Shown here one piece after another: positions 1 to 53,564 of a DNA stretch of 64,000 nucleotides. The notes under the pieces are model-generated. The model ran no database searches, was not told where the DNA came from, and saw nothing but the letters and a program-made list of their open reading frames with translations. The position numbers were made by a program, and so were the translations under genes. Within the stretch, counting starts at the first letter, position 1, and each line of letters starts with the position of its first letter. This stretch comes from a bacterium (lineage in GTDB: Bacteria; UBA8248): NCBI GenBank assembly GCA_965261085.1, contig OZ253442.1, positions 3,744,001-3,808,000 of the forward strand, read 5' to 3'.

Positions 1-1060
1 CCGGGCGGCGAAGCGGGTGACGGTGGGCCGCCACGGCATCGTCACGGCCGAGGAGGCGCGGCGGCGGGCGGCGCTCATCATCGCGCGGATCAAGGCGGGC
101 GAGGAGCCCGTGCCCGAACCGCCGGCGGAGGGCCCGCGGGTGGCGGAACTCGCCCGCGCGTATCTCGAAGAACACGTCGCGGTGCGCTGTAAGCCGAGAA
201 CGGCGGAGATGTACGGCCAGGTCGTCAGGAAACACATCCTGCCCGCACTCGGCAGGATGCCCGCGCTTGCGGTCGAACGCGTCCATGTGAGCGGGTTGCA
301 CCACAAGCTCCGGGATACGCCGATCATGGCGAACCGCGTGGTGGACACGCTCTCGCGAATATACAACGCCGCCGGGGAGCGGGGACTGATCCCCGAGGAC
401 CACAACCCGTGCCGGCTGGTGGTCAAGTACCGTGAGCGCGCCCGCGAGCGGTTCCTGACCGGGGAGGAGTTCCGGCGTCTCGGCCGGGTGCTCGCCGAGT
501 CGCAGACCCGCAAGGGGGTTTCGGTCCACGCGGCGGCGGCTATCCGCCTGCTCCTGCTGACCGGATGCCGGAAGGGCGAGATACTCAACCTGCGCTGGGA
601 CGAGGTGGACCTGGAAGCCAACGAACTGCGGTTGCCTGACACCAAGACCGGGCCCCGGACGATCTCGCTCTCGCCCGAAGCGGCCGGCGTCCTGGCGGCG
701 GTCCCGCACGTTCCGGACAACCCCTTCGTCATCCCAGGCAAGGTCAAGGGCAGGCCCATGCGCAACCTGAACGACCCCTGGGATATCGTCTGCGAGCGTG
801 CGGGACTCACGGACATGCGAATCCACGACTGCAGGCACAGCTACGCGTCCAGGGCCCTGGCGCTGGGCGAGTCTCTCCCGATGATCGGGAAACTCCTCGG
901 CCACACCCAGGTCGAGACCACGGCGCGCTATGCGCACCTCGCGCGGGACTCGGTGCACGAGGCGGCGGTGCGGGTCTCCGACAGTATCGCGGCGGATATC
1001 CTGAAGGGGTACCGGCAGGTGTCGCTACAGGCGCGCTCCGGGCAGCGAACGAGAAAGTAG
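1..1060 (+). CDS. Tyrosine recombinase/integrase with arm-binding N-terminus; probably starts before the window
   Basis: Catalytic motifs LLLTGCRKGE (R), DTKTG (K), HDCRH (HxxR), LLGH, TARYAH (Y); the N-terminal 'TVGRHGIVTAEEARRRA' is the tail of an arm-DNA-binding domain. Confidence 0.93.
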   Translation, partial: RAAKRVTVGRHGIVTAEEARRRAALIIARIKAGEEPVPEPPAEGPRVAELARAYLEEHVAVRCKPRTAEMYGQVVRKHILPALGRMPALAVERVHVSGLHHKLRDTPIMANRVVDTLSRIYNAAGERGLIPEDHNPCRLVVKYRERARERFLTGEEFRRLGRVLAESQTRKGVSVHAAAAIRLLLLTGCRKGEILNLRWDEVDLEANELRLPDTKTGPRTISLSPEAAGVLAAVPHVPDNPFVIPGKVKGRPMRNLNDPWDIVCERAGLTDMRIHDCRHSYASRALALGESLPMIGKLLGHTQVETTARYAHLARDSVHEAAVRVSDSIAADILKGYRQVSLQARSGQRTRK

Positions 1061-1128
1061 AGTTCCGGGCGCGCCGCCAATCTTCGGCATGGAACATCAA
1101 ACGATGCCTTCTCTATGGCAGTTGTGCC

Positions 1129-1519
1129 GTGTTGGCTTGGTGTTGATACGATAGGTTGGTAATATCAACTCCCCAGCGGAAATTCTTGAAAACATTCGAT
1201 ATATTAATGGATTATGGAGTAATGCCGAGAGCAGGCTCCGCCTATCCGTCACGCGATTCGGTGTGCGGGGCCGCAGAGCGCATCGCCGAGAGCATTGCGG
1301 CCGACACCCTGTGAGAAGGCCGCCCGTGTCTCAAGCCAGGGATTTCCAGTCTGGAGCGATACCGTTCTCCCGCAGGAACCCTTCCGCCATCCTGGCGATT
1401 TGCGCCTCCTAGGGATTTCCTGCGGAAGGTAATCAGGAAAGAATTTTATTACAATGCGTTACAGGGCATCAAATTTTCCGCTCGTTCAGTCCGGCATCGA
1501 ATCAACACTATAGCAACAC
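1129..1519. repeat. Inverted pair of GTGTTG-N5-GTGTTGAT motifs (1129-1147 and 1501-1519); att/arm-site-like
   Basis: gtgttggcttggtgttgat versus the reverse complement of atcaacactatagcaacac; immediately downstream of the integrase. Confidence 0.45.
1222..1314 (+). pseudogene. Degenerate copy of the integrase C-terminus
   Basis: Translates MPRAGSAYPSRDSVCGAAERIAESIAADTL*, matching integrase ARYAHLARDSVHEAAVRVSDSIAADIL. Confidence 0.75.
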
Positions 1520-2221
1520 CGCATCCGAACCGTAATTCTGGCGCCGTCTGACGCCCCGAGGCGGCTCACGCACAAGGATTCGCCGAGGGCTGCTGTCCCG
1601 GCCTCCCGCCCCGGAACCCGCGGCGGAGCGCTGGCTCCCGATCGGGTACTTGCCCAATCCCGGCAGGGGAATGCGTCTCCTCTCGCGAGAGTGCTCCGGA
1701 GCGCCTTCAGAAACGTCCTCCGCCCGGGCCGCGATTATCGGAGTTCCCCGTGTCTTGTCCCCCTGAATTGAACCGCATGTGAGCACGCATGTTCGCAAAG
1801 TGTGCGAAGGGGCGCAATCGCGCCGCGGTCCGCCGGCGCGACGTCGAGGCCCGCTTCCGTCTCATCACCGAGCGCCACGGCGCGGTGCCCGCCAACACAA
1901 CCGAGGCCGCCGCAGATGTCGCACTCCAGAAGGCCCGAGAGCAGATGGCGGGGCGGTACAAATGGTCAGGCCCCAGCGTCTTCAATAACACAGAAGAAGT
2001 AAGCATCCGGCGAAGGCCGCGCCTGATGCGGCATGGTCGTAGTGATGGGCGGCTATGAGGTAGGTTGTCGCGAGGTAGTCCTCGATCGATGGCCTCAGGC
2101 TATCGGAATCGCCGATGTGGTTGATCCACGAAACGCCCACGCCAAATTCTGAGTTTTCGCCCTCCACGGCGAAGCCGAACGCGCCGCCGAAGCCTGCGAT
2201 GTGGTCGTCGCCCTCCGGCGT

Positions 2222-2630
2222 GTTGTCGGAGAGCTGCAAGCCCTGCTCTCCCAAGCCGACCGCTCTCTGGGCCGTCTCGACGAGTCCATACAGACACTGT
2301 CTTATCCGGATTTGTTCGTTCTCACGTACGTCCGCAAAGAGGCCGTGCTGTCGAGCCATATTGAAGGGATGCAGAGATAGCTGCAAGACCTGCTGGAGGC
2401 CGAGGCAAGGGTATTCGCGCCGAATCGAGCGAACGACGTAGACGAAGTGGTGAACTATGCCAGCACCATGAATCACGGCCTCGGACGGCTGTCCGAAATA
2501 CCGGTTTCGAGCCGACTGATCCGTGAAATCCATGCCAAATTATTCCAGGGCGCGCGGGGCTCTCATCTCACGCACAGCGTGTTGCGGGCCAGCCAGAACT
2601 GGATCGGACCCTCGGGTGCACGCTTCATGA
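2222..2630 (+). pseudogene. Fic/DOC family protein N-terminal remnant
   Basis: LLSQADRSLGRLD...YVRKEAVLSSHIEG...EVVNY...RLIREIHAKL...SQNWIG; in-frame TAG at 2378-2380; truncated by the IS3 fragment. Confidence 0.8.
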
Positions 2631-2640
2631 GGCCCTCTTC

Positions 2641-3136
2641 GACTACTTGTCGTGGTGGATGAGTTCACACGGAAGTGTTTGTCGATAGATGTGGGTGGTA
2701 AGCTCAAGTCTGAAGATGTGCTGGAGCGCCTGAGCGAGTTGTTTGTAAGACGGGGACTCCCCGAACAGGTTCGCTTGGACAACGGCCCTGAGTTCACCTT
2801 GAAACGTGTGAGAAACCGGCTCTCGAATACAGGTGTGCAAACGCTCTTCATCGAGCCTGACAGCCCCTGGGAAAATGGATATGTCGAATCTTTTAACGGG
2901 AAGATGCGGGATAAACTCTTGAATCCGGAGAGGTTCGATACCCTGTTTGAAGCGAAAGTGCTGGTGGAGCGCCAGCGGCATATCTACAACAGGATCAGGC
3001 CGCACAGTTCATTAGCTTACCGGCCTCCGGTACCTGAAACAAAAGAACCATGGCCTCCGGGCTTCGCTCCGCTTCACCCTTCGTCCATGGTTCCAGAAAC
3101 CTCGTAGCCGGTGGTACAACTATTGGGGGAAGGTCA
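2641..3136 (+). mobile_element. IS3-family remnant: OrfB catalytic core (2652-3107) plus right inverted repeat (3111-3136)
   Basis: DDE motifs VDEFTRKCL, DNGPEF, SPWENGYVESFNGKMRD; terminus gtggtacaactattgggggaaggtca. Confidence 0.88.
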
Positions 3137-3205
3137 ATCACGTGATCACGTTTCCCCTTTTGTTTTTCATCAAACCTGTGGCGCCATTTTGACGAGGTGC
3201 AAACG

Positions 3206-4600
3206 TCAACATAACTCAATGTTATATTTTGCGAACAGATCATCAAAGAATTGTCCCAGAAGTATTTCTCCGCTATCGCATTCTCTAAGTTCATTTGCAC
3301 CAAATCTATATACATCATACCCGCATAAGCGAAGATCCCGGTCAGCGGCTACCATTTTCGCATAAGCTTCTGAATCAGCTTTGCCTGTAATCTTATCTGA
3401 ATAATGATGCATGCCGTCGACTTCAATCACAATTCTTGTACTTGATGAAACCAAAATAAGAAAATCCATTCTTTGGCGAAAGAGAGCGGACCTCCCGCGT
3501 TTCGCAACAGTCTGAGGATCGTAATGAAGCCACACTTCTGGTAGCAGTGCTGGTAATTTCGGAACAGCTTCACCGAAGTGCTTATAGAAGGTACGAAACA
3601 GATGTTTTTGGGGTGGAGAATTTTCCGGCAAGGAAGCGAGAAGGCGTTTGTACAAAGACCGCTTTGCGGTATTAATTTCGCACCCGTTGGTTTCTGCCCA
3701 CCATTCCTGCAAGTCCTTCCACCGGAGCCCGGAATCAGGAATCGGCCTATCGTAGACCAGAACCTTATCTGCGTGGCTAACGATCTCAATATCGTTATTC
3801 ACCGCGTCTCGAAACCGAAGGTCGGGCTTATTAAACGAAGCAAAAATCAGATTTTTAGGCCGCCCCGTAGATCCTGTCCCCGCCGACTGCAACTTGAAGG
3901 CAGGATAGCCGTCAATCGAATCTGTTTCGGCAAGTTCGAGACCACACGTTGAAAGAACCCTGTTCACCGCATGGGCGAATGAGCGTTGGCTTGATTCCTC
4001 TGGGCATACTTCTGAACTAGCCAAAGACTCAATCAATCTGGCAAATCGCTTACTAGAGCACTCAAGTGAGCCCAGCGTTTTGAAGAATTCCAGTACCGAC
4101 CAGCCTCCAGGCTTCCAAATCATATTTTGTTGAATTTGCTGCCGAAGCGACTTTGATATTTCCTCAAGTCCGAATTTTCGCAAGCCTCGATCCGTAGGAC
4201 TCTCAAGTACCCAAAGCCTGCCTACAGCTTCAAGAAAACCATCATCGTCGACCGGGAGTGTCAGCCCTTCTAGTCCCTTGGCGATCTCTCGTCGCATTTT
4301 TTTCGAAATGGTTGGAAAGTCCAAATCGGACCATATGATTTCCTCGATCAAAAATGTATGTTCGTTTCCGTCCGACACAGGAAATTGGCGAATGAATTTA
4401 TTCGCCACCCGCCGGACCAGGGTAGGATCCTTGCCAAGGTTCACTAATCGGCTCTCAATGTACTGGCGTTTGGTCAGTTTCGGATCGTCATACGAGCCAG
4501 GAAGTTCAAGGGCATCACAAAGGCTTGGCAATTCAACCCTTCGCTCCGGCTGTAGCCGCGAAACAATGCCATTACTCAGGTGTTCTGCAAGCTCTCCCAT
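3206..4600 (-). CDS. AbiJ N-terminal domain 3-type protein with C-terminal DUF559-like PD-(D/E)xK nuclease; candidate abortive-infection protein
   Basis: GRPKNLIFAS-KPDLRFRDAVNNDIEIV block; RMDFLIL...IVIEVDG...DRDLRLCGYDVYRFG nuclease signature; lower GC than the flanks. Confidence 0.75.
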   Translation of the reverse strand: MGELAEHLSNGIVSRLQPERRVELPSLCDALELPGSYDDPKLTKRQYIESRLVNLGKDPTLVRRVANKFIRQFPVSDGNEHTFLIEEIIWSDLDFPTISKKMRREIAKGLEGLTLPVDDDGFLEAVGRLWVLESPTDRGLRKFGLEEISKSLRQQIQQNMIWKPGGWSVLEFFKTLGSLECSSKRFARLIESLASSEVCPEESSQRSFAHAVNRVLSTCGLELAETDSIDGYPAFKLQSAGTGSTGRPKNLIFASFNKPDLRFRDAVNNDIEIVSHADKVLVYDRPIPDSGLRWKDLQEWWAETNGCEINTAKRSLYKRLLASLPENSPPQKHLFRTFYKHFGEAVPKLPALLPEVWLHYDPQTVAKRGRSALFRQRMDFLILVSSSTRIVIEVDGMHHYSDKITGKADSEAYAKMVAADRDLRLCGYDVYRFGANELRECDSGEILLGQFFDDLFAKYNIELC

Positions 4601-4884
4601 TTTGAATTGCTCCTATTGTCAATCATAAGTCAGTTAGTCAAGTTGTGTTGGTTTTGTTAGATCTGACGATATTTTCCTCCTTGAAATCCTGGAGCAACCG
4701 AACGATTTCATCTAAATTACCTTCCGTACAAGTAACTACGATGAGTATGACCTATCGGCCGAATACGTGGCACTTGATGTTCCACGGTGACGCTTGGCAA
4801 ACTTTAGACATCGTCGATTCCATTTTGCAATGCAACACGGGTCAGGAGCGACGACATAGCCTCTTGCAGGCACCTAAGGTATCA

Positions 4885-5040
4885 GCCGGGGCTGCCCAGG
4901 GCGATCCGTTTTGGAGTGATGGCATAGCCGGGGTGGAGAAAACCATCACCCCAGGCTGAACATCACCGTCAGATATTTCGACAACATCCAACACCAGGCG
5001 GAGCACCTTGCGGCCCTGCGCCTCCAGTCGATGGGCGCGC
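4885..5040 (-). pseudogene. Possible degenerate IS4-family transposase fragment
   Basis: Minus-strand peptide GFLHPGYAITPKRIALG resembles the IS4/IS50 'LHPTLAVTP..PLG' motif; frameshifted. Confidence 0.3.
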
Positions 5041-5299
5041 TAAGTGATGTCCGTCACAAGGAAGAGCTTGATGCTCGAGATTCGCGCCAGCAAGGAAAGT
5101 TCCCTCATCTTTTTCGATCCCCCAAGTCGTGGTGGCTTTCAAGTGGTTGCCCATGTCTGAGGCTGGTTGTAAACTTCATTCAATTCAATGCGTTATATGG
5201 ATTCTTTATAAGGAATCAAACCGGGAGGCGTAGATTTTCCACCTCGGATACTTCACCCGAACGAGGTGCGGGGCTCCGGGAAAGAGGGGGAGGAGTCCT

Positions 5300-5593
5300 T
5301 TGACGAAAATCGACATCATCAACCTCGTGTCGGACGATACGGGCCTCAGCAAAGTCAAGGCTGAAGAAGCCGTCGAGACAATCATCGACACCATCAAGGG
5401 ATCGCTCGAGAGCGGCGAGTCTGTCATCTTGAGGCGCTTCGGCTCCTTCCAGGTGAGGGAGAAGAACGCTCGCATGGGGCGCAATCCGAAGACGGGCCGG
5501 GAAGCGCCCATCAGCGCTCGCAAGGTTGTAAGCTTCAAAGCGGGAAAACACTTCAAGGAAGCGGTGAACGGCGCCGAGGTGAAATTCCATTGA
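5300..5593 (+). CDS. hup: HU/IHF family histone-like DNA-binding protein
   Basis: MTKIDII...RFGSFQVREKNARMGRNPKTG...VVSFKAGK; TTG start after GGAGGAG ribosome-binding site. Confidence 0.95.
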   Translation: MTKIDIINLVSDDTGLSKVKAEEAVETIIDTIKGSLESGESVILRRFGSFQVREKNARMGRNPKTGREAPISARKVVSFKAGKHFKEAVNGAEVKFH

Positions 5594-5658
5594 TCCTTTG
5601 ATTCGTCGGCCTGTTGGCACGGCGTCCCCATGACCGTAGAATCGATAACCCTCCCTGA

Positions 5659-5830
5659 ATGCGCGTCCATGTAAAGGCGCATTGCAAGCCGGGCGCCGCG
5701 GCATATCGGTTCGTAATCGAGAAGCACTTCCTGCCGTCGGAGGGCGCGATGGTGGTAGACCATGTCGGAGGAGGTGAGGTTTCGGTCTGCACCACCGGCT
5801 TCGCGACATGCCGGACCCGCGCCGCCATGC
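5659..5830 (+). pseudogene. Integrase central-domain remnant
   Basis: HVKAHCKPG..YRFVIEKHFLP..G then, after a frameshift, GLHHRLRDMP; parallels HVAVRCKP...KHILPALG...GLHHKLRDTP of the intact integrase. Confidence 0.7.
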
Positions 5831-6507
5831 CCCCAACCCGCCGAGTCGCGGAGAGCAAGAGCCGGCTCGGCGGATGGATGACCGGAAAAGGTCCTTGCCG
5901 CTCGATACTGCCGTTAACCTAGGTGCCGATTGATGTTTTCTCTGAAAATGTTAAGGGGAATATCCGACGATAAAATGCAAAGGAGGAGTCAAACCATGCG
6001 TGAAATGCATAACATAGTGTTCTTGTTTACCTTCACGGTTGTGCTGGCGGGGCAACCATCAGTTGCCCAAGTTCATCGAAGGTGTCAAATTCAAGGACGA
6101 CCTTGAGGCCGTTGACTTCGAAACCCGCGCCGCCTGATCACTCCATCACCCACTTTCGGGCATATCTCGTGGGGGCACAGGGCAGAAACTGGTAGATTTG
6201 CGAAGGGAAATCTGGTCACGGATGGTCTATTGGCAAGCATAGGGGTTGGCGCGGTTCATCTTTGTGGTCTCGCTCAGCGCCTACAGCAAGGCAACCGAAG
6301 GCTGACAGCGGTCCTGATTCAAGTCATCACAACAGCAGGGGAAGAAAAAGCACTTCGCGTGGAGCGGTCACAAAAGATATTTGATTGACTTAAAGATATC
6401 ATTGCCAAATACGTAGTGAATTGCGGTGAGCTTGTGCAACATCACCGCCCTTTCTATATGTCAATATAGTTTTTTCATATGGATGCGTACGAAGTGGATC
6501 CGTCGAG

Positions 6508-40496: not shown

Positions 40497-40662
40497 TCCT
40501 TTCCGTTTTGGCCGGGGAACACACGGGGGTCATCCGGCTAGCGGGGAACCTCCTCCAACACCCTGAGCACGGGTGCCGTCAGCGAAACTATGCAAGTGGC
40601 CGCCTTGGCGTCTTAGAGTCTCAACTCGCCCGCCCTACGGTCCACGTCGTCCCAGCGTATTC
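40497..40662 (-). pseudogene. Integrase catalytic-domain remnant
   Basis: RWDDVDRRAGELRL*DAK...VSLTAPVLRVLEEVPR*PDDP parallels LRWDEVDLEANELRLPDTKTGPRTISLSP...VPDNP. Confidence 0.75.
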
Positions 40663-40799
40663 GGTTTGCGCCGATGCTTTCCTAATCCCCATCACTCCAC
40701 GAACGAACCTTTGCCGTAAGCGATGGGATGGACGCGCCCTCCCGAAGGCATCACACTGTGGTGAGGTGGTGTCGTTACCGCCCTGCAGGAGGGGAATCC

Positions 40800-41825
40800 A
40801 TGGAACAGGTTCACATCATCGGCATCGATCTGGCAAAACAGAGCTTTCAACTCCACGGCACGCGCCCGGACGGATCGGTCGCGTTCCGGAAGAAGCTTAC
40901 CAGGGCGAAGGTGTTGGGCTTTCTGGCTTCGCAGCCGCGGTGCCTGGTGGCGATGGAGGCATGTGCGAGCGCGCACTACTGGGGGCGTGAGATCGGCAAG
41001 CTCGGCCATGAGGTGAAGCTTATCCCGCCGATCTACGTGAAACCCTTCGTCAAGCGCCACAAGAACGACGAGGCTGATGCGGAGGCGATCTGCGAGTCGG
41101 CCTCTCGCCCGACCATGCACTTCGTGGCCGTGAAGACTGAAGAGCAGCAGGCCCGAGGGATGCTGTTCCGCACGCGCGATTTGCTGGTGCGACAGCGCAC
41201 CCAGACGATCAACGCGCTGCGCGGCCATCTGGCGGAGTTCGGCGTCGTTGCTCCCCAGGGTCCCGCCCATGTCGCGCGGCTGGCGTCGGCCGTTGCAGAT
41301 CCGGGCTTGGGCCTGCCCGAGGCGGTCCGCGATCTGGGCGGGGTTCTGCTCGATCAGATCGCCGGCCTCAATGCGAAGATCGGGGAGTTGGAGAGGCAAC
41401 TTCTCGCGAGTGCGCGCCAAGACGAGGAGGCGAGGCGCCTGATGAGCATACCGGGGATCGGGGCGATCGGGGCGATGGCGATCCAGGCCTTCGCGCCGCC
41501 GATGGAAAGCTTCCGGCGCGGTCGCGACTTCTCCGCCTGGCTCGGGCTCGTCCCGCGGCAGCACTCCACCGGTGGCAAGCCCCGGCTGGGCAGGATATCG
41601 AAGATGGGCCAGCGCGACGTCAGGCGGTTGTTGATCATAGGCGCGATGACGGTGGTGCGCTGGGCGGTCCGGCGCGGCGCTCCGCCGGGCTCATGGCTGG
41701 CCCGGATGCTGGCGCGAAAGCCGCGTATGCTGGTCGCGGTGGCGCTGGCCAACAGGATGGCGCGCATCGCCTGGGCGCTGATGACGAAAAAAGAGGTCTA
41801 CAAGGAGCCGGTGCCGGCCGCCTGA
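40800..41825 (+). CDS. IS110-family DEDD recombinase/transposase
   Basis: IGIDLAK, AMEAC, KNDEADAEAI, SIPGIG, GLVPRQHSTGG; GGAGGGG ribosome-binding site. Confidence 0.95.
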   Translation: MEQVHIIGIDLAKQSFQLHGTRPDGSVAFRKKLTRAKVLGFLASQPRCLVAMEACASAHYWGREIGKLGHEVKLIPPIYVKPFVKRHKNDEADAEAICESASRPTMHFVAVKTEEQQARGMLFRTRDLLVRQRTQTINALRGHLAEFGVVAPQGPAHVARLASAVADPGLGLPEAVRDLGGVLLDQIAGLNAKIGELERQLLASARQDEEARRLMSIPGIGAIGAMAIQAFAPPMESFRRGRDFSAWLGLVPRQHSTGGKPRLGRISKMGQRDVRRLLIIGAMTVVRWAVRRGAPPGSWLARMLARKPRMLVAVALANRMARIAWALMTKKEVYKEPVPAA

Positions 41826-42081
41826 GCGGCAGGCGAGCGGATAATGCCGGGAATGTGAGCAGGTCGGAGGACAGGTAAGGGGCATACGGTCAATGAGACG
41901 GGATCGGGAAAACCAGGACCTGAATGGAGAGCTTTCAAGCTCGCGTAAGCGATTCGGACCCGATCCGCGCATCTCCATACGGGCCCGTGGCAAGAGGGAA
42001 ACGCCGCAATCTAGAGGCCGAATACACGACTGCGCCTGACCACATTGCGCCGAACTGTCCGAAGAAAAAGCTTGCATTTTG
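41826..42081 (+). ncRNA. Putative seek/bridge RNA of IS110 copy 1
   Basis: Two stem-internal-loop units carrying segments that match the target (CTGAATG, GTAAGC) and the donor junction (TCCAT, ATACAC). Confidence 0.7.
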
Positions 42082-42201
42082 GGGCGCGTCCATACACATT
42101 CGGTCGAGGGGTGATGGTGTCCGCGTAGCTCATTCCGGATAATCGAAGAGATTCCCGTAAGGTGCTGGTAACATCTTCCGGCATGTGGTAATCATGTCGG
42201 C

Positions 42202-44520
42202 ATGAAGATTTGCACGGAAGCTGTCGAGACGGAGCCGGCGTTGGTCGAGAGGCCGGATGAGCCATGGCCTCATCCCCCCGAGTTGTTCACAACCGGAGAG
42301 GCGTACTGGCGTTCGCTGTACGAGCGCGAGCGTGCGCGCGCGGAGGCGGCGGAAGCGCGCTGCGAGGAGTTGCGGTGGAAGGAGGTGGATACGCGCACGC
42401 GGGCGGGTTCGCTGAAGTGGTATCTCGACAACTGCCGGAGGAAGCTTGCCGCGAGCGTCGGGAAGTTGAAGGAAGTCCGCCGCGCGGCGAAGAAGGACAT
42501 CCTGGCGCTCGAGGCGGAAGTGGCTCGACAGGAGAAGCTTCTTCGCAAAGCCGGTGTCGAGCCGGGCAAGCGCAGCCCGCTCGCGTCGCTGCGCAAAGAG
42601 GTGGCCCGGTTGCGCAAGGCTCTCTCGGGCGCGTTGCCTCCGGGGGAGGCCGCGCGGCTGCGCAGAGTCGTGGAGAAGCGGGAGAATACGATCGAGTCTC
42701 TGCGCAAGGAGATTGAGGGGCGGGAGGAGGCGCTCGCCCGGCTGAAGAATCGGCTGGCCTGGGAGAAGCTGGAGACGAAGTCTCAGAAGAAGACGGTCCA
42801 GTGGCGTGACGAGGAGGTCATCCGGCTCTGCGGGAAGTTGCGGGAATTGCGTGACGATTTGCGGGTCTCCCTCAGGGCCGCGGACGTCGCGAAGGAACGG
42901 CTGAAGGAGCGGTTGTTGCGCGCGAAGGAGGCGTTGCGCTCGAGGTCGCCGTCTCGTTCGGACGCGGAACTTCGCAAGGCCCTGGGGAGGTCGCGGCGTC
43001 AGAAGACGGCGCTCAGGTCCCTCTCCAGGGAGAACGGGCGGTTGTGCCGTGCGCTTCGCAAGTCGGAGACCCACAGGGCGCGGCTGGAGGCCGAGCTCGC
43101 GAAGCTTCGCGCCACCGGAGCGGTGCTGGCGAGAAGGCTGTTCGGGCGCGGGAGCGAACGACAGGAGAGGCCACGCTCGGAGCGCAGGCGCGGCGGGCAG
43201 CCCGGCGCCCAAGGCCATGGCCGCACCCCGCGGCCCGCGCTCGGGGAGAGGACCGAAGTTCGCAACCCGCCGGCCAGCGCGCGCGTCTGCGCCGGTTGCG
43301 GGCAGCCCTACGTGGCGAACGGCGCACGCATGTCGAGCATCGTCGAGATCGAAGTCTCGGCCTACAGGCGGGTCATACGCCGTCCGAGGTGGCGCCGGGT
43401 GTGCGCGTGCGCGTCGTCTCCCATGGAAGTGTCGGCGCCGCCTGCGCCGCGCCTGTTTGCGGGCACGTCTTACGGGACGAGCGTCTGGGCGCGCCTGCTG
43501 TTCGAGCGCTACGCCTGCTTCCGCCCACTCAACCGGGTCGCCGCGTGGCTCTCCGACCAGGGACTTCCGGTCTCCGCGGGCACGCTGGGCGACAGCACAC
43601 ACCGCTTCACGCCGCTGTTCGAGCCGCTGGCCCGGGCGATCCTCGCCCGCCAGAACGAGGCGGCGGTGCGCCATGGGGACGAGACGACGTGGCGCGTACA
43701 GTCGCTTCGCGAGCAAGGACGCTCGAGCCGCGCCTGGCTGTGGGCCTCGGTAAGCACAGACTCCGTCTACTTCCACGTCGACCCCTCGAGGAGCGCCGAT
43801 GTCGCGATGAAGCTGTTCGGCGCGGCCGGCCCCCATACAGTCATCGTCTGCGACCGCTACAGCGCCTACAAGAAGCTGGCGCGCGAACTCGACGGCGCCG
43901 TGAGTCTTGGCTTCTGCTGGAGCCACGTTCGGCGCGATTATATCCACTGCGCCGCCGGCGATGCGCGGCTGACGTCGTGGTGTGAGAGATGGATCGGGCG
44001 GATTGCGCTGCTCTACCGCCTGAACGAGGCGCGCCTGGCCCGTTACGACTCAGGCTTCGAACGCCAGGACGCGGCGTTCGAAGCGGCGCAGGCCGCGCTC
44101 AAGAAGGCGCTCGATAGCCTGTTCGCGCAGGCCCGACGGGAACTGTCGGCCCTGCCGGCGCAGGTGCGCGAGGGCAAGGCGCTTCGCTCACTGCTGAACC
44201 ACCGCGAAGGGCTGAGCGTCTTCGTCGAGCGCCCCTCGGTGCCAATGGATAATAACGCCGTCGAGCGCGCGCTTAGGGGACCGGTGATCGGGAGGCGGCT
44301 CTCGTTCGGCTCCGTGAGTGAGGCCGGCGCCAGGTTCTCGGCGATGATGTACTCGGTCCTCGGCACCCTCGCGTCGAACGGCATCGACCCGCTCCGCTGG
44401 CTGGAGGCATGGCTCACGGCCTGCGCGGAGAACGGCGACCGGGCGCCCGGGGACCTCTCCGCGTGGCTGCCCTGGTCGATGAATGAGGAGCGCAGGCGCG
44501 CCCTCATGGCGCCGGGATGA
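42202..44520 (+). CDS. IS66-family transposase with long N-terminal coiled coil
   Basis: LFGRGSE, RGGQPGAQGHGR, CAGCG zinc finger, HGDETTW, CDRYSAY, CWSHVRR, DNNAVERALRGPVIGRR. Confidence 0.92.
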   Translation: MKICTEAVETEPALVERPDEPWPHPPELFTTGEAYWRSLYERERARAEAAEARCEELRWKEVDTRTRAGSLKWYLDNCRRKLAASVGKLKEVRRAAKKDILALEAEVARQEKLLRKAGVEPGKRSPLASLRKEVARLRKALSGALPPGEAARLRRVVEKRENTIESLRKEIEGREEALARLKNRLAWEKLETKSQKKTVQWRDEEVIRLCGKLRELRDDLRVSLRAADVAKERLKERLLRAKEALRSRSPSRSDAELRKALGRSRRQKTALRSLSRENGRLCRALRKSETHRARLEAELAKLRATGAVLARRLFGRGSERQERPRSERRRGGQPGAQGHGRTPRPALGERTEVRNPPASARVCAGCGQPYVANGARMSSIVEIEVSAYRRVIRRPRWRRVCACASSPMEVSAPPAPRLFAGTSYGTSVWARLLFERYACFRPLNRVAAWLSDQGLPVSAGTLGDSTHRFTPLFEPLARAILARQNEAAVRHGDETTWRVQSLREQGRSSRAWLWASVSTDSVYFHVDPSRSADVAMKLFGAAGPHTVIVCDRYSAYKKLARELDGAVSLGFCWSHVRRDYIHCAAGDARLTSWCERWIGRIALLYRLNEARLARYDSGFERQDAAFEAAQAALKKALDSLFAQARRELSALPAQVREGKALRSLLNHREGLSVFVERPSVPMDNNAVERALRGPVIGRRLSFGSVSEAGARFSAMMYSVLGTLASNGIDPLRWLEAWLTACAENGDRAPGDLSAWLPWSMNEERRRALMAPG

Positions 44521-44524
44521 CGCC

Positions 44525-45397
44525 GTGACCGAGTGCCGCTACTACGGGCGCGACTTCACGACGGAAGAGATGGCGCTGCTGCGCGCGCTGATCGCAGGCT
44601 CTCCTGCGCTCAACCGCCATGCGCTCTCGAAGGAGTTCTGCCGCCGCATCGGCTGGTACAAGCCCGACGGCGGACTCAAGGACATGATGGCACGGGTGAC
44701 CATGCTCGCCATGGACAAGGACGGCCTGATCACGCTCCCCCCGCCGATGCGGCCACGCCACGCGGCTCGGCCAATCGTCTTCGGACCCGACACCGAAGCG
44801 CCTCTCATCCCGTCGCCGACCACCCTCGATGAGGTCCGCCCCATCGGGATGCGCATCGTCGTGCGCGGAACCCGCGAGGGCCAGCTCTGGAACGAGTTCG
44901 TCGCCCGCTACCACTACCTCGGTTACAAGACCCTCGTCGGCGCACAGATGCGCTACGCCGTCCACGACCGCGACGGCAGGCCCCTCGCCATGCTCGGCTT
45001 CTCCACCGCCGCGTGGAAGCTCGCCCCGCGCGACAGCTTCATCGGCTGGACGCCCAAGCTGCGTGAGAAGAACCTCCCCTTCGTGGTCGACAACCCGAGG
45101 TTCCTCATCCTGCCATGGATCAAAATCCCCAACCTCGGCTCGCACCTCCTCGCCATCATCCGCAGGCGCCTGCCCGGGGACTGGACCGAACGCTATGGCG
45201 TCACCCCCGTGCTCGTCGAGACCTTCGTCGAAACGCCCCGCTACACCGGAGCCGTCTACAGGGCATCGGGATGGATTCCCGTTGGAACCACCCAGGGACG
45301 AGGGCGCTACGACAGGGACAGACGCTACGACAAGCCCAAAAAGGACGTCTGGCTAAGGCCGCTCCGCAGCAACTGGAAGCAAGTCCTCAGCCGCTGA
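44525..45397 (+). CDS. DUF4338 (Druantia DruA-like) protein inside the IS66 element
   Basis: WNEFVARYHYLGY, GFSTAAWKLAPRDSFIGW, NPRFLILPW..PNLGSH, LVETFV, YTGAVYRASGW..VGTTQGRG. Confidence 0.85.
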   Translation: MTECRYYGRDFTTEEMALLRALIAGSPALNRHALSKEFCRRIGWYKPDGGLKDMMARVTMLAMDKDGLITLPPPMRPRHAARPIVFGPDTEAPLIPSPTTLDEVRPIGMRIVVRGTREGQLWNEFVARYHYLGYKTLVGAQMRYAVHDRDGRPLAMLGFSTAAWKLAPRDSFIGWTPKLREKNLPFVVDNPRFLILPWIKIPNLGSHLLAIIRRRLPGDWTERYGVTPVLVETFVETPRYTGAVYRASGWIPVGTTQGRGRYDRDRRYDKPKKDVWLRPLRSNWKQVLSR

Positions 45398-45441
45398 AAC
45401 AAACCCCATCACCCCTCGACCGAATGTGTATGGACGCGCCC

Positions 45442-45697
45442 CAAAATGCAAGCTTTTTCTTCGGACAGTTCGGCGCAATGTGGTCAGGCGCAGTCGTGTA
45501 TTCGGCCTCTAGATTGCGGCGTTTCCCTCTTGCCACGGGCCCGTATGGAGATGCGCGGATCGGGTCCGAATCGCTTACGCGAGCTTGAAAGCTCTCCATT
45601 CAGGTCCTGGTTTTCCCGATCCCGTCTCATTGACCGTATGCCCCTTACCTGTCCTCCGACCTGCTCACATTCCCGGCATTATCCGCTCGCCTGCCGC
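45442..45697 (-). ncRNA. Putative seek/bridge RNA of IS110 copy 2
   Basis: Reverse complement of 41826-42081. Confidence 0.7.
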
Positions 45698-46723
45698 TCA
45701 GGCGGCCGGCACCGGCTCCTTGTAGACCTCTTTTTTCGTCATCAGCGCCCAGGCGATGCGCGCCATCCTGTTGGCCAGCGCCACCGCGACCAGCATACGC
45801 GGCTTTCGCGCCAGCATCCGGGCCAGCCATGAGCCCGGCGGAGCGCCGCGCCGGACCGCCCAGCGCACCACCGTCATCGCGCCTATGATCAACAACCGCC
45901 TGACGTCGCGCTGGCCCATCTTCGATATCCTGCCCAGCCGGGGCTTGCCACCGGTGGAGTGCTGCCGCGGGACGAGCCCGAGCCAGGCGGAGAAGTCGCG
46001 ACCGCGCCGGAAGCTTTCCATCGGCGGCGCGAAGGCCTGGATCGCCATCGCCCCGATCGCCCCGATCCCCGGTATGCTCATCAGGCGCCTCGCCTCCTCG
46101 TCTTGGCGCGCACTCGCGAGAAGTTGCCTCTCCAACTCCCCGATCTTCGCATTGAGGCCGGCGATCTGATCGAGCAGAACCCCGCCCAGATCGCGGACCG
46201 CCTCGGGCAGGCCCAAGCCCGGATCTGCAACGGCCGACGCCAGCCGCGCGACATGGGCGGGACCCTGGGGAGCAACGACGCCGAACTCCGCCAGATGGCC
46301 GCGCAGCGCGTTGATCGTCTGGGTGCGCTGTCGCACCAGCAAATCGCGCGTGCGGAACAGCATCCCTCGGGCCTGCTGCTCTTCAGTCTTCACGGCCACG
46401 AAGTGCATGGTCGGGCGAGAGGCCGACTCGCAGATCGCCTCCGCATCAGCCTCGTCGTTCTTGTGGCGCTTGACGAAGGGTTTCACGTAGATCGGCGGGA
46501 TAAGCTTCACCTCATGGCCGAGCTTGCCGATCTCACGCCCCCAGTAGTGCGCGCTCGCACATGCCTCCATCGCCACCAGGCACCGCGGCTGCGAAGCCAG
46601 AAAGCCCAACACCTTCGCCCTGGTAAGCTTCTTCCGGAACGCGACCGATCCGTCCGGGCGCGTGCCGTGGAGTTGAAAGCTCTGTTTTGCCAGATCGATG
46701 CCGATGATGTGAACCTGTTCCAT
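45698..46723 (-). CDS. IS110-family DEDD recombinase/transposase
   Basis: Protein identical to copy 1. Confidence 0.95.
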   Translation of the reverse strand: MEQVHIIGIDLAKQSFQLHGTRPDGSVAFRKKLTRAKVLGFLASQPRCLVAMEACASAHYWGREIGKLGHEVKLIPPIYVKPFVKRHKNDEADAEAICESASRPTMHFVAVKTEEQQARGMLFRTRDLLVRQRTQTINALRGHLAEFGVVAPQGPAHVARLASAVADPGLGLPEAVRDLGGVLLDQIAGLNAKIGELERQLLASARQDEEARRLMSIPGIGAIGAMAIQAFAPPMESFRRGRDFSAWLGLVPRQHSTGGKPRLGRISKMGQRDVRRLLIIGAMTVVRWAVRRGAPPGSWLARMLARKPRMLVAVALANRMARIAWALMTKKEVYKEPVPAA

Positions 46724-47234
46724 GGATTCCCCTCCTGCAGGGCGGTAACGACACCACCTCACCACAGTGTGATGCCTTCGGGAGGGCGCGTCCATCCCAT
46801 CGCTTACCCTTTGCCCGACGTAAACGCGCGCCTATGCGCTGGAGTTGTAATTCATCCGCTTGCGTTTTGATTACATCCTGCGGAAGCTAGATTCCGAACA
46901 AGAGCGGGGATATTTAATATTTTCAAATGATATCAATGGGATAGCAGGATTCCACACCCGTTGGAAATACCCTAGTATCTATAAACGGGCGAAATATGAA
47001 ATTTGCGGATATTTATTTCGGTCCGAAACAAAGCTTCATTCCCCGCAACCCCTTGTCCGGAAGGGATTCGTCCGGGAGGCGGATGCGGTTTTCTCTTTCA
47101 TGGGTCCCTGCCTTCCGGGAAGAGCGACGCCCATCTCCCCCAAGGTAGCCATCGACAGGGGAGGGATGTTATCTGGAAACAGACGCCGTCCCGTGAACGG
47201 CGTTGCGGGTCCTGCACGGGCCGCCCGCATGCGC

Positions 47235-52846: not shown

Positions 52847-53564
52847 ATTCAGGCCTCGCGCCGACTTCCCTTGATATTCCATGCGTTCCCTTTTCTTTCT
52901 TGCGTTCGTTTCACGAGGCGCGGCATGGAACCCGCAATGGGCCCGGGCGATGCGTCGAACGATACGGAGCCGGCCCCTGTGAAGGAACCGGGCGCCTCCT
53001 AGCCAAAGTCTGGTCACTTTCTAGGATAAACGATTCGGACACACCTTGTGAAACTCTAAATTCGAGGCCTGAGCAATAATCAAATTTGTGCAAATGCGGG
53101 GCCCTTGCGGGGGGCGATTCACGGGTCTTACAGCCGGAAACGAAACCCTCCGGCCGCAGGCGAGGGGAGGAGACATGAGATGTCGAAACCCCCAAGCCGC
53201 AGGAACGCGGCGCTCCGGGAGGCGATGGCGAAAGGCGAAACAGGACGGAGGCGCGGTTGCGTAGTGCGGGTGGAAGGGGAGACGGGATGGTTCCGGCGAC
53301 TCGGACCCGCCGGGATGCGCGGGAGTTTGAATTCGCCCGCTTTCGTTTTGATTACATATTGCGGAAGGCGGATTCCGGATGAAGTTAGTAAAAATAGATA
53401 TTTACAATTATATCAATAAGATAATGGAATTTCTTCGCCGATAAAAACACTCATCCGCATCTAAGCGGGCGGAAAGGCATTTATGTGCGTTCCGTAAGGA
53501 GGAACACTTCCTGCCGCTCGCGCCACCTTGTCGCCGACGGGATGCGGACACGAACTACGGAGCA

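What the first reader, a model, noticed from the sequence alone, without database searches (positions are those of the whole stretch)
40708..46815. IS110/IS1111 element inserted at the same base in both terminal inverted repeats of an IS66 element
Seen: two 1376-bp IS110 copies in inverted orientation. Removing them rebuilds the same IR, GTAAG-C-ATTCGGTCGAGGGGTGATGG, at both ends of an IS66 transposase + DUF4338 unit, and the whole structure is flanked by an exact 8-bp duplication CCTTTGCC. A single C is present at both junctions of each IS110. Known: IS66 elements start with GTAA and make 8-bp duplications; IS1111-group members IS4321/IS5075 target the IRs of Tn21-type transposons. Inference: this IS110 is programmed against IS66 ends, so it parasitises or hitch-hikes on another IS and may reversibly lock it. 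It looks like a composite transposon but is a doubly hit IS66.
Basis: partly seen in the sequence, partly recalled or inferred. Interest (0 to 1): 0.9.

Follow-up and report, generated by a model that had tools for sequence, protein, structure and literature searches.

The report
RNA-guided IS1111 element splitting IS66 ends
A small jumping gene that chooses its landing site with its own guide RNA has inserted at exactly the same base in both ends of a second, unrelated jumping gene (IS66 type), a new example of a known habit of this family rather than a new kind of system.

Summary
Window 40716-46807 is one IS66-family element (transposase plus a DruA/DUF4338-like gene). It has an exact 8-bp duplication, CCTTTGCC. 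Both 26-bp terminal repeats are split after GTAAGC by identical 1376-bp IS1111-group (IS110-family) elements.

All 4 full-length copies in the 4.27-Mb genome sit at GTAAGC|ATTCGGTCG inside IS66-type repeats. Two intact copies of the 12-mer remain, and both are also IS66-type ends. A contig from another sample carries the empty site.

The 3' non-coding region encodes a seekRNA/bridge-RNA-like fold. Its two loop segments match GTAAGC and CATTCGG. Across 40 related elements with different guides, these two segments covary with the elements' own flanks (0 of 10,000 permutations as good).

So this is RNA-programmed targeting of IS66 ends, not a composite transposon. Relatives in other genomes carry guides for other IS66-type end variants. 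The GTAAGC/GTAACC guide type is scattered over the transposase tree.

That the insertion immobilises IS66, reversibly or not, is inference only. In kind this is known: IS4321/IS5075 target Tn21 ends and IS1383 targets IS1384 ends. I file it as a new member of a known kind, of moderate interest.

The parts
40708..40715 (.). Left copy of the 8-bp target duplication CCTTTGCC made by the IS66 element
   Evidence: The empty-site contig in X5 joins 40707 to 46808 with 8 shared letters.
40716..40721 (+). Tip (GTAAGC) of the left IS66 terminal inverted repeat, cut off from the rest of the IR. C 40721 is the crossover base.
   Evidence: The intact 26-mer is at C1:276201.
40722..42097 (+). IS1111-group (IS110-family) element, copy A, 1376 bp. 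Equally 40721-42096 if the shared C is given to the left end.
   Evidence: 4 copies at 100% in the genome. Pfam/NCBIfam. PDB hits to the ISCro4 and IS621 transposases.
40728..40739 (+). Left subterminal inverted repeat ATGGACGCGCCC
   Evidence: Read. It is the reverse complement of 42082-42093.
40800..41825 (+). DEDD transposase/recombinase gene (341 aa from the ATG at 40800, behind AGGAGGGG). The ORF is open from 40728.
   Evidence: The motif GLVPRQHSTG aligns with the Ser-Gly loop of ISCro4.
41893..42042 (+). seekRNA / bridge-RNA-like non-coding RNA within the 272-bp downstream non-coding region (41826-42097)
   Evidence: RNAalifold consensus. Covariance model R1, 162 bits on this copy. 15 of 30 pairs have compensatory changes.
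41920..41926 (+). T guide CTGAATG, complementary (one G:U) to top-strand C|ATTCGG of the IS66 IR
   Evidence: Covaries with right flanks in relatives.
41945..41950 (+). B guide GTAAGC, identical to the IR tip (pairs with the bottom strand). It is followed by invariant GAT, which equals the first 3 bases of the IS left end.
   Evidence: Equals the left flank 6/6 in 30 of 40 related guide types.
42022..42029 (+). Donor-loop segment ATACACGA. It equals the last 6 bases of the right end plus the first 2 of the left end, and covaries with right-end variants in relatives.
   Evidence: compared with the right-end alignment.
42082..42093 (+). Right subterminal inverted repeat GGGCGCGTCCAT, followed by the terminal extension ACA(C)
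42098..42117 (+). Inner 20 bp of the left IS66 IR (ATTCGGTCGAGGGGTGATGG)
42202..44520 (+). IS66-family DDE transposase (772-aa ORF; DDE domain at residues 422-711; long N-terminal extension)
44483..45397 (+). DruA/DUF4338-like gene carried inside the IS66 element
   Evidence: PF14236, 1.3e-36. Also present in the diverged third copy and in relatives.
45406..45425 (-). Inner 20 bp of the right IS66 IR
45426..46801 (-). IS1111-group element, copy B, identical to copy A (guides at 45597-45603 and 45573-45578)
46802..46807 (-). Tip (GTAAGC on the minus strand) of the right IS66 IR
46808..46815 (.). Right copy of the 8-bp duplication CCTTTGCC
46832..46874 (-). Core of a ~190-nt intergenic repeat (40 copies in the genome) next to which IS66-type elements preferentially sit
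40684..40707 (-). Remnant of an older IS66-type IR, on whose tip the present IS66 landed
   Evidence: (family D7, 83% to the right IR) and reading.

Best explanation
What it is. A 1376-bp IS1111-group member of the IS110 family encodes a DEDD recombinase. Downstream of that gene it encodes a ~150-nt seekRNA/bridge-RNA-like transcript.

How it targets. One internal loop of the RNA carries two short guides. The 5' guide pairs with the top strand (C|ATTCGG). The 3' guide pairs with the bottom strand (GTAAGC). They overlap at one C. Together they specify the 12-mer GTAAGCATTCGG, which in this genome exists only as bases 1-12 of IS66-type terminal inverted repeats.

How it inserts. The element, presumably as an excised circle, recombines at that C without making a duplication and always in one orientation. 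It has done so at 4 of the 6 available sites: both ends of the window's IS66 element, the right end of a sister copy, and one end of a 235-bp IS66-derived MITE. The inverted 'composite' look follows from the target being present in inverted orientation at the two IS66 ends.

Shown here:
- anatomy and site identity;
- guide-target complementarity;
- covariation of guides with flanks;
- the IS66 duplication and the empty site.

Inferred from the family:
- a circular intermediate and a junction promoter;
- RNA-protein action.

Inferred only (about 60%): splitting the IR six bases from its tip immobilises the IS66 copy until the guest excises. On that reading IS66 ends and their MITEs serve the guest as harmless, multiplying landing pads.
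For: - Copies and sites: 4 of 4 full-length copies (100% identical) are flanked by GTAAGC|...|ATTCGGTCG, with the left end always next to the IR tip.
- Free sites: intact 12-mers number 2, and both are IS66-type ends. 0.42 are expected by composition.
- Near-misses: 8 further intact IS66-type ends differ at 1-4 of the first 12 bases, and none is occupied. One of them, GTAACCATTCGG, is the other end of the hit MITE.
- Guides: CTGAATG (41920-41926) and GTAAGC (41945-41950) lie on the two sides of an internal loop closed by a conserved stem. This is the order (top-strand complement 5' of bottom-strand match, overlapping in the target) that Siddiquee et al. 2024 describe for IS1111 seekRNAs (sections read).
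- Covariation, first set: 16 distinct relatives give B own 5.47/6 against 3.44 cross, and T run 7.19 against 4.08. 0 of 10,000 permutations were as good for each.
- Covariation, larger set: of 101 model matches, 82 had both ends located, giving 40 distinct guide pairs. B equals the flank 6/6 in 30 of 40 (5.65 against 3.11). T run is >=7 in 23 of 40 (6.90 against 4.17). 0 of 10,000 permutations were as good for each.
- In-genome control: the diverged fragment at C1:1443326-1444017 has T CAGATTT and right flank AAATCTG.
- RNA fold: 96.7% of cells are paired, against 21-44% when partners are slid. 15 of 30 pairs show changes on both sides.
- Protein: NF033542 'IS110 family RNA-guided transposase', 321 bits against a cut-off of 140. 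PDB hits to the ISCro4 and IS621 transposases, E 4e-14 and 2e-11.
- IS66 moved first and on its own: 8-bp duplications at both full copies and at two MITEs, and an empty site in run X5.
Against: - No RNA data. No listed run is on record as RNA, so transcription, processing and ends of the RNA are unknown.
- No circle junction or restored IR at this locus could be looked for. Only contigs, not raw reads, were available.
- Guide matches of 6-7 nt occur by chance in a 272-nt region (one search lists many). The case therefore rests on position in the fold and on covariation, not on the match alone.
- The relatives are kin, so the permutation tests overstate independence.
- The covariance-model alignment is fitted to the structure it is then scored on.
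- In 10 of 40 guide types the B guide is not a perfect match. Some elements sit at sites that fit their guides poorly, such as L011 (4/6 and a run of 5) and several copies of the L035-L048 type.
- An internally deleted, diverged copy (C1:1872201-1873025) has GTAATC on the left and no IS66 IR on the right.
- Nothing here measures IS66 activity, so 'lock' is untested.
Confidence: 0.9

Rival explanations
1. Hitch-hiking. The IS1111 element entered one IS66 end once and was then carried along when IS66 transposed. On this view the right-end copies in the two IS66 elements are one insertion inherited by descent rather than independent RNA-guided hits.
For: Both full IS66 copies carry the guest in the right IR. 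The IS66 cores (3328 bp) and the guests are all 100% identical, so descent cannot be told from re-insertion.
Against: - To move as a unit, the IS66 transposase would have to use an outer end that shares only GTAAGC with its IR.
- The fourth guest copy is in a different element, a MITE with a different IR variant (ATTCGGTCGCGGGGTGATAG), so independent targeting certainly occurs.
- The left ends of the two IS66 copies differ in occupancy.
- 4 of 6 sites are filled, so repeated independent hits are expected.
Confidence: 0.12
2. A true composite transposon. The two inverted IS1111 copies mobilise the IS66 segment between them as cargo.
For: Two identical IS copies in inverted orientation bracket a 3.3-kb segment.
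Against: - The 8-bp duplication lies outside GTAAGC tips that belong to the IS66 IR.
- The family is described as making no target duplication (Siddiquee et al., introduction read).
- The same IS66 occurs with one intact end and its own 8-bp duplication.
- Relatives of the IS66 element occur without any guest in 16 loci of other genomes.
- Recombination between inverted copies would invert the segment, not excise it.
Confidence: 0.02
3. Assembly artefact. The inverted pair around IS66 is a mis-join of repeats, and in reality only one end, or a different IS66 copy, is hit.
For: Contigs from the probable source sample reach only 29-30 nt into the repeat, below the tool's 31-letter bridging rule. 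No record spans the stretch.
Against: - Both unique flanks are joined to GTAAGC followed by 23-24 nt of the IS1111 left end in X1 and X2 contigs. So both outer junctions exist in the reads.
- The flanks carry the matching 8-bp duplication, and the empty site exists elsewhere.
- The genome is a single 4.27-Mb contig.
- The only other IS66 core has different flanks.
Confidence: 0.03

Closest known systems
[quoted passage not shown]
   Same: An IS1111-group element with subterminal inverted repeats that inserts at one position and in one orientation inside the terminal IR of another transposable element. Such elements can also land on look-alike chromosomal sites (IS5075 in ureC; passages of PMC8269217 read).
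   Different: The target here is the IR of an IS66-family insertion sequence and its MITEs, cut six bases from the tip. The host is an uncultured alphaproteobacterium. The transposase is only distantly related. The 2003 paper itself was not held. I saw its title in reference lists and statements about it.
IS1383 targeting the inverted repeats of IS1384 in Pseudomonas putida H (Muller, Lauf & Hermann 2001)
   Same: By its title, an IS whose specific integration target is the IRs of another IS. It is cited among the IS110-family literature by Durrant et al.
   Different: A different target IS and host. I saw only the title, in a reference list, so position, orientation and family details are not compared.
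seekRNA of ISEc11, ISKpn4, ISPst6, ISPa11 (Siddiquee et al. 2024) and bridge RNA of IS621 (Durrant et al. 2024)
   Same: - The non-coding region lies downstream of tnp.
- The RNA has a top-strand complement 5' of a bottom-strand match, and the two overlap in the target.
- A second loop matches the element's own ends.
- Retargeting occurs naturally between close relatives.
   Different: No experimental RNA here. There is no Rfam match. The targets there are attC sites, REP sequences or short linear sites, not IS66 ends. Donor recognition here is only partly read: one segment covaries with the right end.
IS66 family (the host element)
   Same: DDE_Tnp_IS66 transposase, IRs beginning GTAA, 8-bp duplication.
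   Different: There is no tnpA or tnpB. Instead it has a long N-terminal extension on the transposase and a DruA/DUF4338-like gene. No paper in the library holds both 'DUF4338' and 'IS66'. That single-ORF IS66 relatives form an ISBst12-type group is my recollection and comes from no call.

Membership tests
IS110 family, IS1111 group | DEDD (RuvC-like) N-terminal domain plus the PF02371 C-terminal domain | tested here: met
   PF01548 2.1e-15 and PF02371 6.1e-22. NF033542, 321 bits against a cut-off of 140. PDB hits to the ISCro4 and IS621 transposases.
IS110 family, IS1111 group | Subterminal inverted repeats of about 11-13 bp with short asymmetric terminal extensions (7 or 6 bp left, 3 bp right) | tested here: met
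   12-bp perfect sTIR at 40728-40739 / 42082-42093. The extensions are (C)GATGGG and ACA(C), that is 7 and 3 if the shared C is given to the left. The criterion is from the section read.
IS110 family, IS1111 group | Long non-coding region downstream of tnp that encodes the guide RNA | tested here: met
   272 bp downstream against 78 bp upstream. Structured RNA with covarying guides. Transcription itself was not testable.
IS110 family, IS1111 group | Site- and orientation-specific insertion without a target duplication | tested here: met
   4 of 4 copies are at the same 12-mer in one orientation. Only one base (C) is shared at the junctions.
IS110 family, IS1111 group | GL-P----S(t)G motif in the C-terminal domain | tested here: met
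   GLVPRQHSTG, aligned to the corresponding loop of ISCro4. The motif is as given in the section read.
IS110 family, IS1111 group | Circular intermediate with abutted ends and a junction promoter | not testable with these tools
   Only contigs were available. A -35-like TTGCAT at 42072-42077 is conserved as GCTTGCA in all 19 aligned relatives, which is suggestive only.
IS66 family | DDE_Tnp_IS66 transposase | tested here: met
   PF03050 2.2e-56. NF033517, 279 bits against a cut-off of 180.
   26-bp IR GTAAGCATTCGGTCGAGGGGTGATGG. Duplications CCTTTGCC and CAAATTTT at the two copies, CTTCTGTC and AATGGTTC at two MITEs. Empty site with one copy of the 8 bp.
IS66 family | Accessory tnpA and tnpB genes upstream of tnpC (canonical IS66 group) | tested here: not met
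   There are only two ORFs between the IRs and no PF05717. A canonical tnpA/tnpB/tnpC element was seen for comparison in L068.
Composite transposon | Moves by the flanking IS copies and carries the target-site signature of those IS | tested here: not met
   The duplication and the ends are those of the inner IS66. The inner element exists alone elsewhere.
Druantia defence system | DruA together with the large helicase DruE and further dru genes | tested here: not met
   The DruA-like gene is one of two ORFs inside a 3.3-kb IR-bounded element. The PADLOC match is marginal (E 4.6e-4). The whole unit is absent from the empty site.

The most novel reading that the evidence does not exclude
IS66-family elements and a clade of bridge-RNA IS1111 elements may be locked in a guide-versus-end chase. 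The guests would repeatedly re-programme one or both guides to follow diverging IS66 IR tips: GTAAGC|ATTCGG here, GTAACC|GTTCAG in L007, GTAAGC|GTTCGT in L065, GTAAGC|GTTCCG in L073, GTAAGC|GGGGCG in a canonical tnpABC IS66 in L068. They would act as natural RNA-guided, excisable off-switches of another transposon.

The nesting here has three tiers. An intergenic repeat is preferentially hit by IS66-type elements, and their ends are in turn hit by IS1111.

The GTAAGC/GTAACC guide type needs at least 6 gains or losses on the transposase tree. This is compatible with recurrent capture of IS66 ends as targets.
Probability: 0.3. Interest if true: 0.7.

Novelty: new member of a known kind. Interest (0 to 1): 0.45.

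Why it matters
- It shows in raw sequence, with the guide readable next to its target, that an RNA-guided insertion sequence can specialise on the ends of another insertion sequence. It also shows that close relatives (86% identical transposases) are programmed for quite different sites.
- The 40 natural guide-target pairs collected here are a small training set for the less-studied IS1111 type of bridge/seek RNA.
- For annotation it is a warning: two inverted IS110 copies around a transposase are not necessarily a composite transposon.
- If splitting the IR does silence IS66 until the guest leaves, this would be a simple natural case of one mobile element regulating another. That step is untested.

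Tried and rejected
- Rfam gave no match to any family at E<=1 over 40600-46900 and nothing meaningful over the intergenic repeat.
- Folding the whole 272-nt non-coding region alone gave a z-score of only -1.46. The alignment-based fold was used instead.
- The match of 42016-42023 (GGCCGAAT) to the target right half was rejected as a guide. In relatives that segment varies without relation to their targets and is partly a conserved stem.
- My first regular expressions failed twice: for the right ends (fixed), and for the guides in 52 of 80 MAG loci. I replaced them with a covariance model. The first left-end locator mis-placed L023 and L007. One search corrected L023. L007's left end is aberrant at a contig end and stays a miss.
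- The T-guide score assumes a C at the crossover for all elements. It therefore under-scores those whose flank ends in T.
- A loose pattern for IS66 IR cores matched 1654 places genome-wide and was discarded as uninformative.
- No RNA holder was listed among the sequencing runs, so nothing can be said about expression.
- Contigs of X1/X2 do not bridge the junctions by the tool's 31-letter rule. Parts without cover in X5/X8 are not interpreted.
- Literature searches:
  - 'DUF4338' with 'IS66': 0 papers.
  - 'IS110 family' + 'IS66' + 'inserted into the' + 'inverted repeat of': 0 papers.
  - 'IS1111' + 'IS66' + 'inverted repeat' + 'target': 6 papers. One was opened (PMC7371123) and was irrelevant. 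The other five were judged from their titles and abstract openings in the listing only.
  - 'IS110' + 'bridge RNA' + 'other mobile genetic elements' + 'target': 3 papers, none relevant by title.
  - So I found no report of an IS110/IS1111 element targeting IS66 ends. ISfinder, TnCentral and subscription journals could not be searched, and supplementary tables of the 2024 target surveys were not seen.
- No structure or complex prediction was run, because no claim needs one.

Full report
**What is in the sequence**

The repeat finder reports inverted arms at 40716-42120 and 45403-46807, 1405 nt long. Reading both strands gives this order:
- flank, then CCTTTGCC (40708-40715);
- GTAAGC (40716-40721);
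- a 1376-bp element (40722-42097, plus strand);
- ATTCGGTCGAGGGGTGATGG (42098-42117);
- two genes;
- the mirror image of the above, ending with CCTTTGCC at 46808-46815.

The arms agree perfectly through the 26-bp repeat. One mismatch follows at 42118/45405, so the tool's '100%' is rounded.

The flanking elements encode a DEDD_Tnp_IS110 + Transposase_20 protein. It scores 321 bits against a cut-off of 140 on NF033542, 'IS110 family RNA-guided transposase'. It also matches the solved ISCro4 and IS621 transposases. The inner genes are a DDE_Tnp_IS66 transposase (NF033517, 279 bits against 180) and a DruA/DUF4338-like protein.

The window lies in a single 4,267,820-bp contig. BLAST finds four full-length copies of the 1376-bp element, all 100% identical, plus six shorter, diverged pieces.

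All four full copies are flanked by GTAAGC on the left and ATTCGGTCG on the right, in the same orientation relative to the target:
- Two are the window's pair.
- One is in the right end of a second, 100% identical IS66 copy (C1:276201-280916). Its left end is the uninterrupted 26-mer, and it has its own 8-bp duplication, CAAATTTT.
- One is in one end of a ~235-bp MITE-like element bounded by IS66-type repeats. Its other end, GTAACCATTCGG, is not hit.

The intact 12-mer GTAAGCATTCGG occurs twice in the genome: at that free left end, and at an empty copy of the MITE at C1:3722726. From base composition 0.42 occurrences are expected. Eight further intact IS66-type ends differ at 1-4 of the first 12 bases, and none is occupied.

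So IS66-type elements with 0, 1 and 2 insertions all exist. Occupancy of perfect sites is 4 of 6, and with that occupancy a doubly hit copy is not surprising.

**The IS66 element arrived first, as a unit**

The 8-bp duplications lie outside the GTAAGC tips at both full copies. Two MITEs show the same pattern, with CTTCTGTC and AATGGTTC.

In run X5, from a different sample and study, a contig joins 40707 to 46808. It skips 6100 bp, with 8 shared letters at the joint and 69 letters on its shorter side. That is the empty chromosomal site with a single CCTTTGCC.

In the probable source sample (X1, X2), contigs run from each unique flank through GTAAGC and 23-24 nt of the guest's left end. This fits both outer junctions. 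It falls one or two letters short of the tool's own bridging rule, and no record spans the whole stretch.

**Why the guest lands there**

The non-coding region is 272 bp downstream of the transposase gene, against 78 bp upstream. The ends carry a perfect 12-bp subterminal inverted repeat with short extensions. These are the marks of the IS1111 group as described by Siddiquee et al. 2024 (sections read).

A scan for pairing between the non-coding transcript and the target finds two segments:
- CTGAATG at 41920-41926, complementary to C|ATTCGG with one G:U pair;
- GTAAGC at 41945-41950, identical to the IR tip.

They are 18 nt apart and overlap in the target at the crossover C. Chance 6-8-mers are common in such a scan, so I tested the idea on relatives.

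*First test on relatives.* A DNA search of 60 related genomes gave 18 further full-length elements at 77-85% identity, each at a different site. In their alignment, exactly these two segments vary while the surrounding RNA is conserved, and they follow each element's own flanks. For 16 distinct rows (three duplicates dropped):
- the 3' segment matches the last six flank bases at 5.47 of 6, against 3.44 for mismatched pairings;
- the 5' segment pairs with the right flank over 7.19 nt, against 4.08;
- no permutation out of 10,000 was as good for either measure.

*Fold.* RNAalifold places the two segments on opposite sides of one internal loop. The loop is closed by a 14-bp stem and capped by a small hairpin. 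A second stem-loop follows.

*Larger test.* A covariance model built on this alignment found 101 matches in 96 loci, including 80 loci from metagenome-assembled genomes fetched with the transposase.
- On that alignment 96.7% of cells pair, against 21-44% when partners are slid, and 15 of 30 pairs show changes on both sides. The alignment is fitted to the model, which favours the structure.
- 82 of the 101 had both ends located, giving 40 distinct guide pairs.
- The 3' guide equals the flank 6/6 in 30 of the 40 (mean 5.65 against 3.11).
- The 5' guide pairs over at least 7 nt in 23 of the 40 (mean 6.90 against 4.17).
- Again 0 of 10,000 permutations were as good. The elements are kin, so these figures overstate independence.

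*Control inside the genome.* A diverged fragment at C1:1443326-1444017 has CAGATTT in the 5' guide position and AAATCTG as its right flank.

*Other features of the RNA.*
- The order of the guides, top-strand complement first with the two matches overlapping in the target, is the one reported for IS1111 seekRNAs.
- The 3' guide is followed in all relatives by GAT, the first three bases of the left end.
- In the second loop, ATACACGA follows the right-end variants of the relatives (ACAC, GCAC, GTAC, ATAC). This fits a donor-binding role. I could not read the rest of donor recognition.

**Is IS66 targeting peculiar to this genome?**

The exact element was found only in G000 among the 61 genomes searched; the next best match is 85% identical.

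Relatives of the IS66-DruA element occur in 13 of the 22 other genomes of the genus. In the 16 loci from other genomes that I inspected, no visible end is split. One of them, L116, carries the intact 12-mer in a genome that lacks this guest.

Other relatives of the guest are nonetheless aimed at other IS66-type ends:
- L007 has guides for GTAACC|GTTCAG and sits against GTTCAGTCGTGGGGTGATAGG.
- L065 sits in one IR of a 467-bp element with a partner IR and a DruA fragment.
- L073 sits in one IR of a 128-bp MITE.
- L068 and L076 sit at GTAAGC|GGGGCG. In L068 a canonical IS66 follows, with tnpA, and with tnpC carrying the LZ, zinc-finger and DDE domains.
- In G000 itself, two remnants that keep only the non-coding region lie in IS66-type MITE ends.

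On a quick maximum-likelihood tree of 59 transposase rows, the 17 rows with a GTAAGC or GTAACC guide need 7 changes of state, and at least 6 are forced by well-supported branches. The nearest relatives of the window's element (86% identity) aim elsewhere. The rows were 54 deduplicated plus 6 added. One row without a guide was dropped, and L002 and L010 were left out because no ORF of 250 aa was found.

The guide label is only a proxy for 'IS66 end'. An IS66 context was checked only for the cases listed above.

**Mechanism and its status**

*Shown:* a guest with the anatomy of an IS1111 element; a structured RNA whose two loop segments specify the 12-mer at which all copies sit; and a host element that transposed by its own rules before being hit.

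*Inferred from the family:*
- excision as a circle;
- a promoter across the joined ends (a TTGCAT at 42072-42077 is conserved in all 19 aligned relatives);
- recombination by a recombinase-RNA complex at the shared C, without duplication.

These rest on passages and sections read.

*Inferred only:* an IR whose tip is 1376 bp from its remaining 20 bp is unusable by the IS66 transposase. Such a block could be reversible, because excision by IS621 regenerates the target junction, though in vitro at about 1% efficiency against about 70% for insertion (passages of PMC13626964). Nothing here tests IS66 activity.

**Comparison with what is known**

Three things are in print:
- IS1111-family elements that target the terminal repeats of Tn21-family transposons (IS4321, IS5075);
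- an IS whose integration target is the IRs of another IS (IS1383 in IS1384; title seen);
- the RNA mechanism (2024 papers).

I found no report of IS66 ends as a target. The searches are listed under Tried and rejected. ISfinder and the supplementary target tables were out of reach.

The finding is therefore a new member of a known kind. It adds a readable guide, evidence of repeated natural retargeting among IS66 end variants, and a nested arrangement.

**Side observation**

IS66-type elements in this genome are themselves not randomly placed. A ~190-nt intergenic repeat has 40 copies and lies between ordinary genes. It is followed within 75 nt by an IS66-type end, or by the guest that splits one, in 12 of the 40 copies.

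The same adjacency appears in four other genomes of the genus when the coordinates are compared. The window's IS66 landed on the tip of an older IS66-type IR remnant beside such a repeat.

This points to site preference of the IS66-DruA elements. I did not resolve what the repeat is.

Noticed in passing
window 46832-46874 (-) and 53285-53500 (-); 40 copies in G000:C1: A ~190-nt intergenic repeat with core GTAATCAAAACGAAAGCGG...GCGCATCC. It starts sharply and ends near TGTCG. It has no Rfam match and lies between ordinary genes. 12 of its 40 copies have an IS66-type end, or the IS1111 that splits one, within 75 nt downstream. The same adjacency is seen in G004, G008, G013 and G014. This suggests site-preferential insertion of the IS66-DruA elements and a three-tier nesting.
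   Followed up: partly
window 40684-40707: The left flank of the IS66 element is itself the reverse complement of an IS66-type IR remnant (…GTTCGTTCGTGGAGTGATGGGG). So the present IS66 inserted at the tip of an older one. The MITE at C1:2515160-2516770 likewise sits (duplication AATGGTTC) inside another IS66-type IR.
   Followed up: partly
G000:C1 3722726-3722960, 2515160-2516770, 1213154-1213388, 2471041-2471163: Short (~120-235 bp) MITE-like elements bounded by IS66-type IRs of several sequence variants. One is occupied by the IS1111 element, and one identical-type copy is empty.
   Followed up: partly
G000:C1 1192354-1192553 and 2514915-2514991: Remnants consisting only of the IS1111 non-coding (guide RNA) region, lying in IS66-type MITE ends (right flank ATTCAGTCGTCGGGTGAG). 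They are signs of older rounds of the same association.
   Followed up: partly
window 44483-45397; L113 861-1733; L065: A DruA/DUF4338-like gene is a conserved passenger of this IS66 subgroup and has no other Druantia genes with it. One paper describes DUF4338 as a GNAT-like acetyltransferase domain (passage of PMC10853773). Its role in the element is unknown.
   Followed up: partly
window 42202-43200: The IS66 transposase ORF has a ~330-residue N-terminal extension. It has only weak, coiled-coil-like matches to DndD/PbeC models, and Pfam detects no LZ or zf-IS66 domains there.
   Followed up: no
L035-L048, L063 (one MAG chromosome): An IS1111 relative with guides for GTAACC|GTTCGG is present in many copies. 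Left flanks match the guide (mostly 6/6). Several right flanks do not (pairing runs of 3-5), which suggests rearrangements between copies or tolerance on the right side.
   Followed up: no
L011 (G014:C4:927589-928964): This element's guides specify GTAAGC|GTTCGG, the IR of the 13-copy IS66 relative of G013. It nevertheless sits at GGTATCC|GTTCATC (4/6 and a run of 5): an apparent off-target or decayed site.
   Followed up: no
L116 and L118, left flanks of IS66 relatives: Reversed fragments of an IS1111 left end with GTAAGC (…CCATCCCATCGCTT…, …CCCCATCGCTTAC…) lie immediately outside the IS66 left IR in two other genomes. They are further traces of intertwined histories.
   Followed up: no
L068 (MAG contig), 211-6087: An IS1111 relative lies between two canonical IS66 elements (tnpA, tnpB, tnpC) arranged head to head. 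It is inserted after GTAAGC of the right-hand one.
   Followed up: partly
G000:C1 ~996100-996240: One copy of the intergenic repeat begins directly after what looks like the 3' end of a tRNA gene (…GGTTCGAATCCCTCCCTCTCCGCCA).
   Followed up: no
G000:C1 275806-276122: A 79%-identical fragment of an IS1111-type transposase gene lies about 80 bp outside the intact left IR of the second IS66 copy, in the opposite orientation.
   Followed up: no
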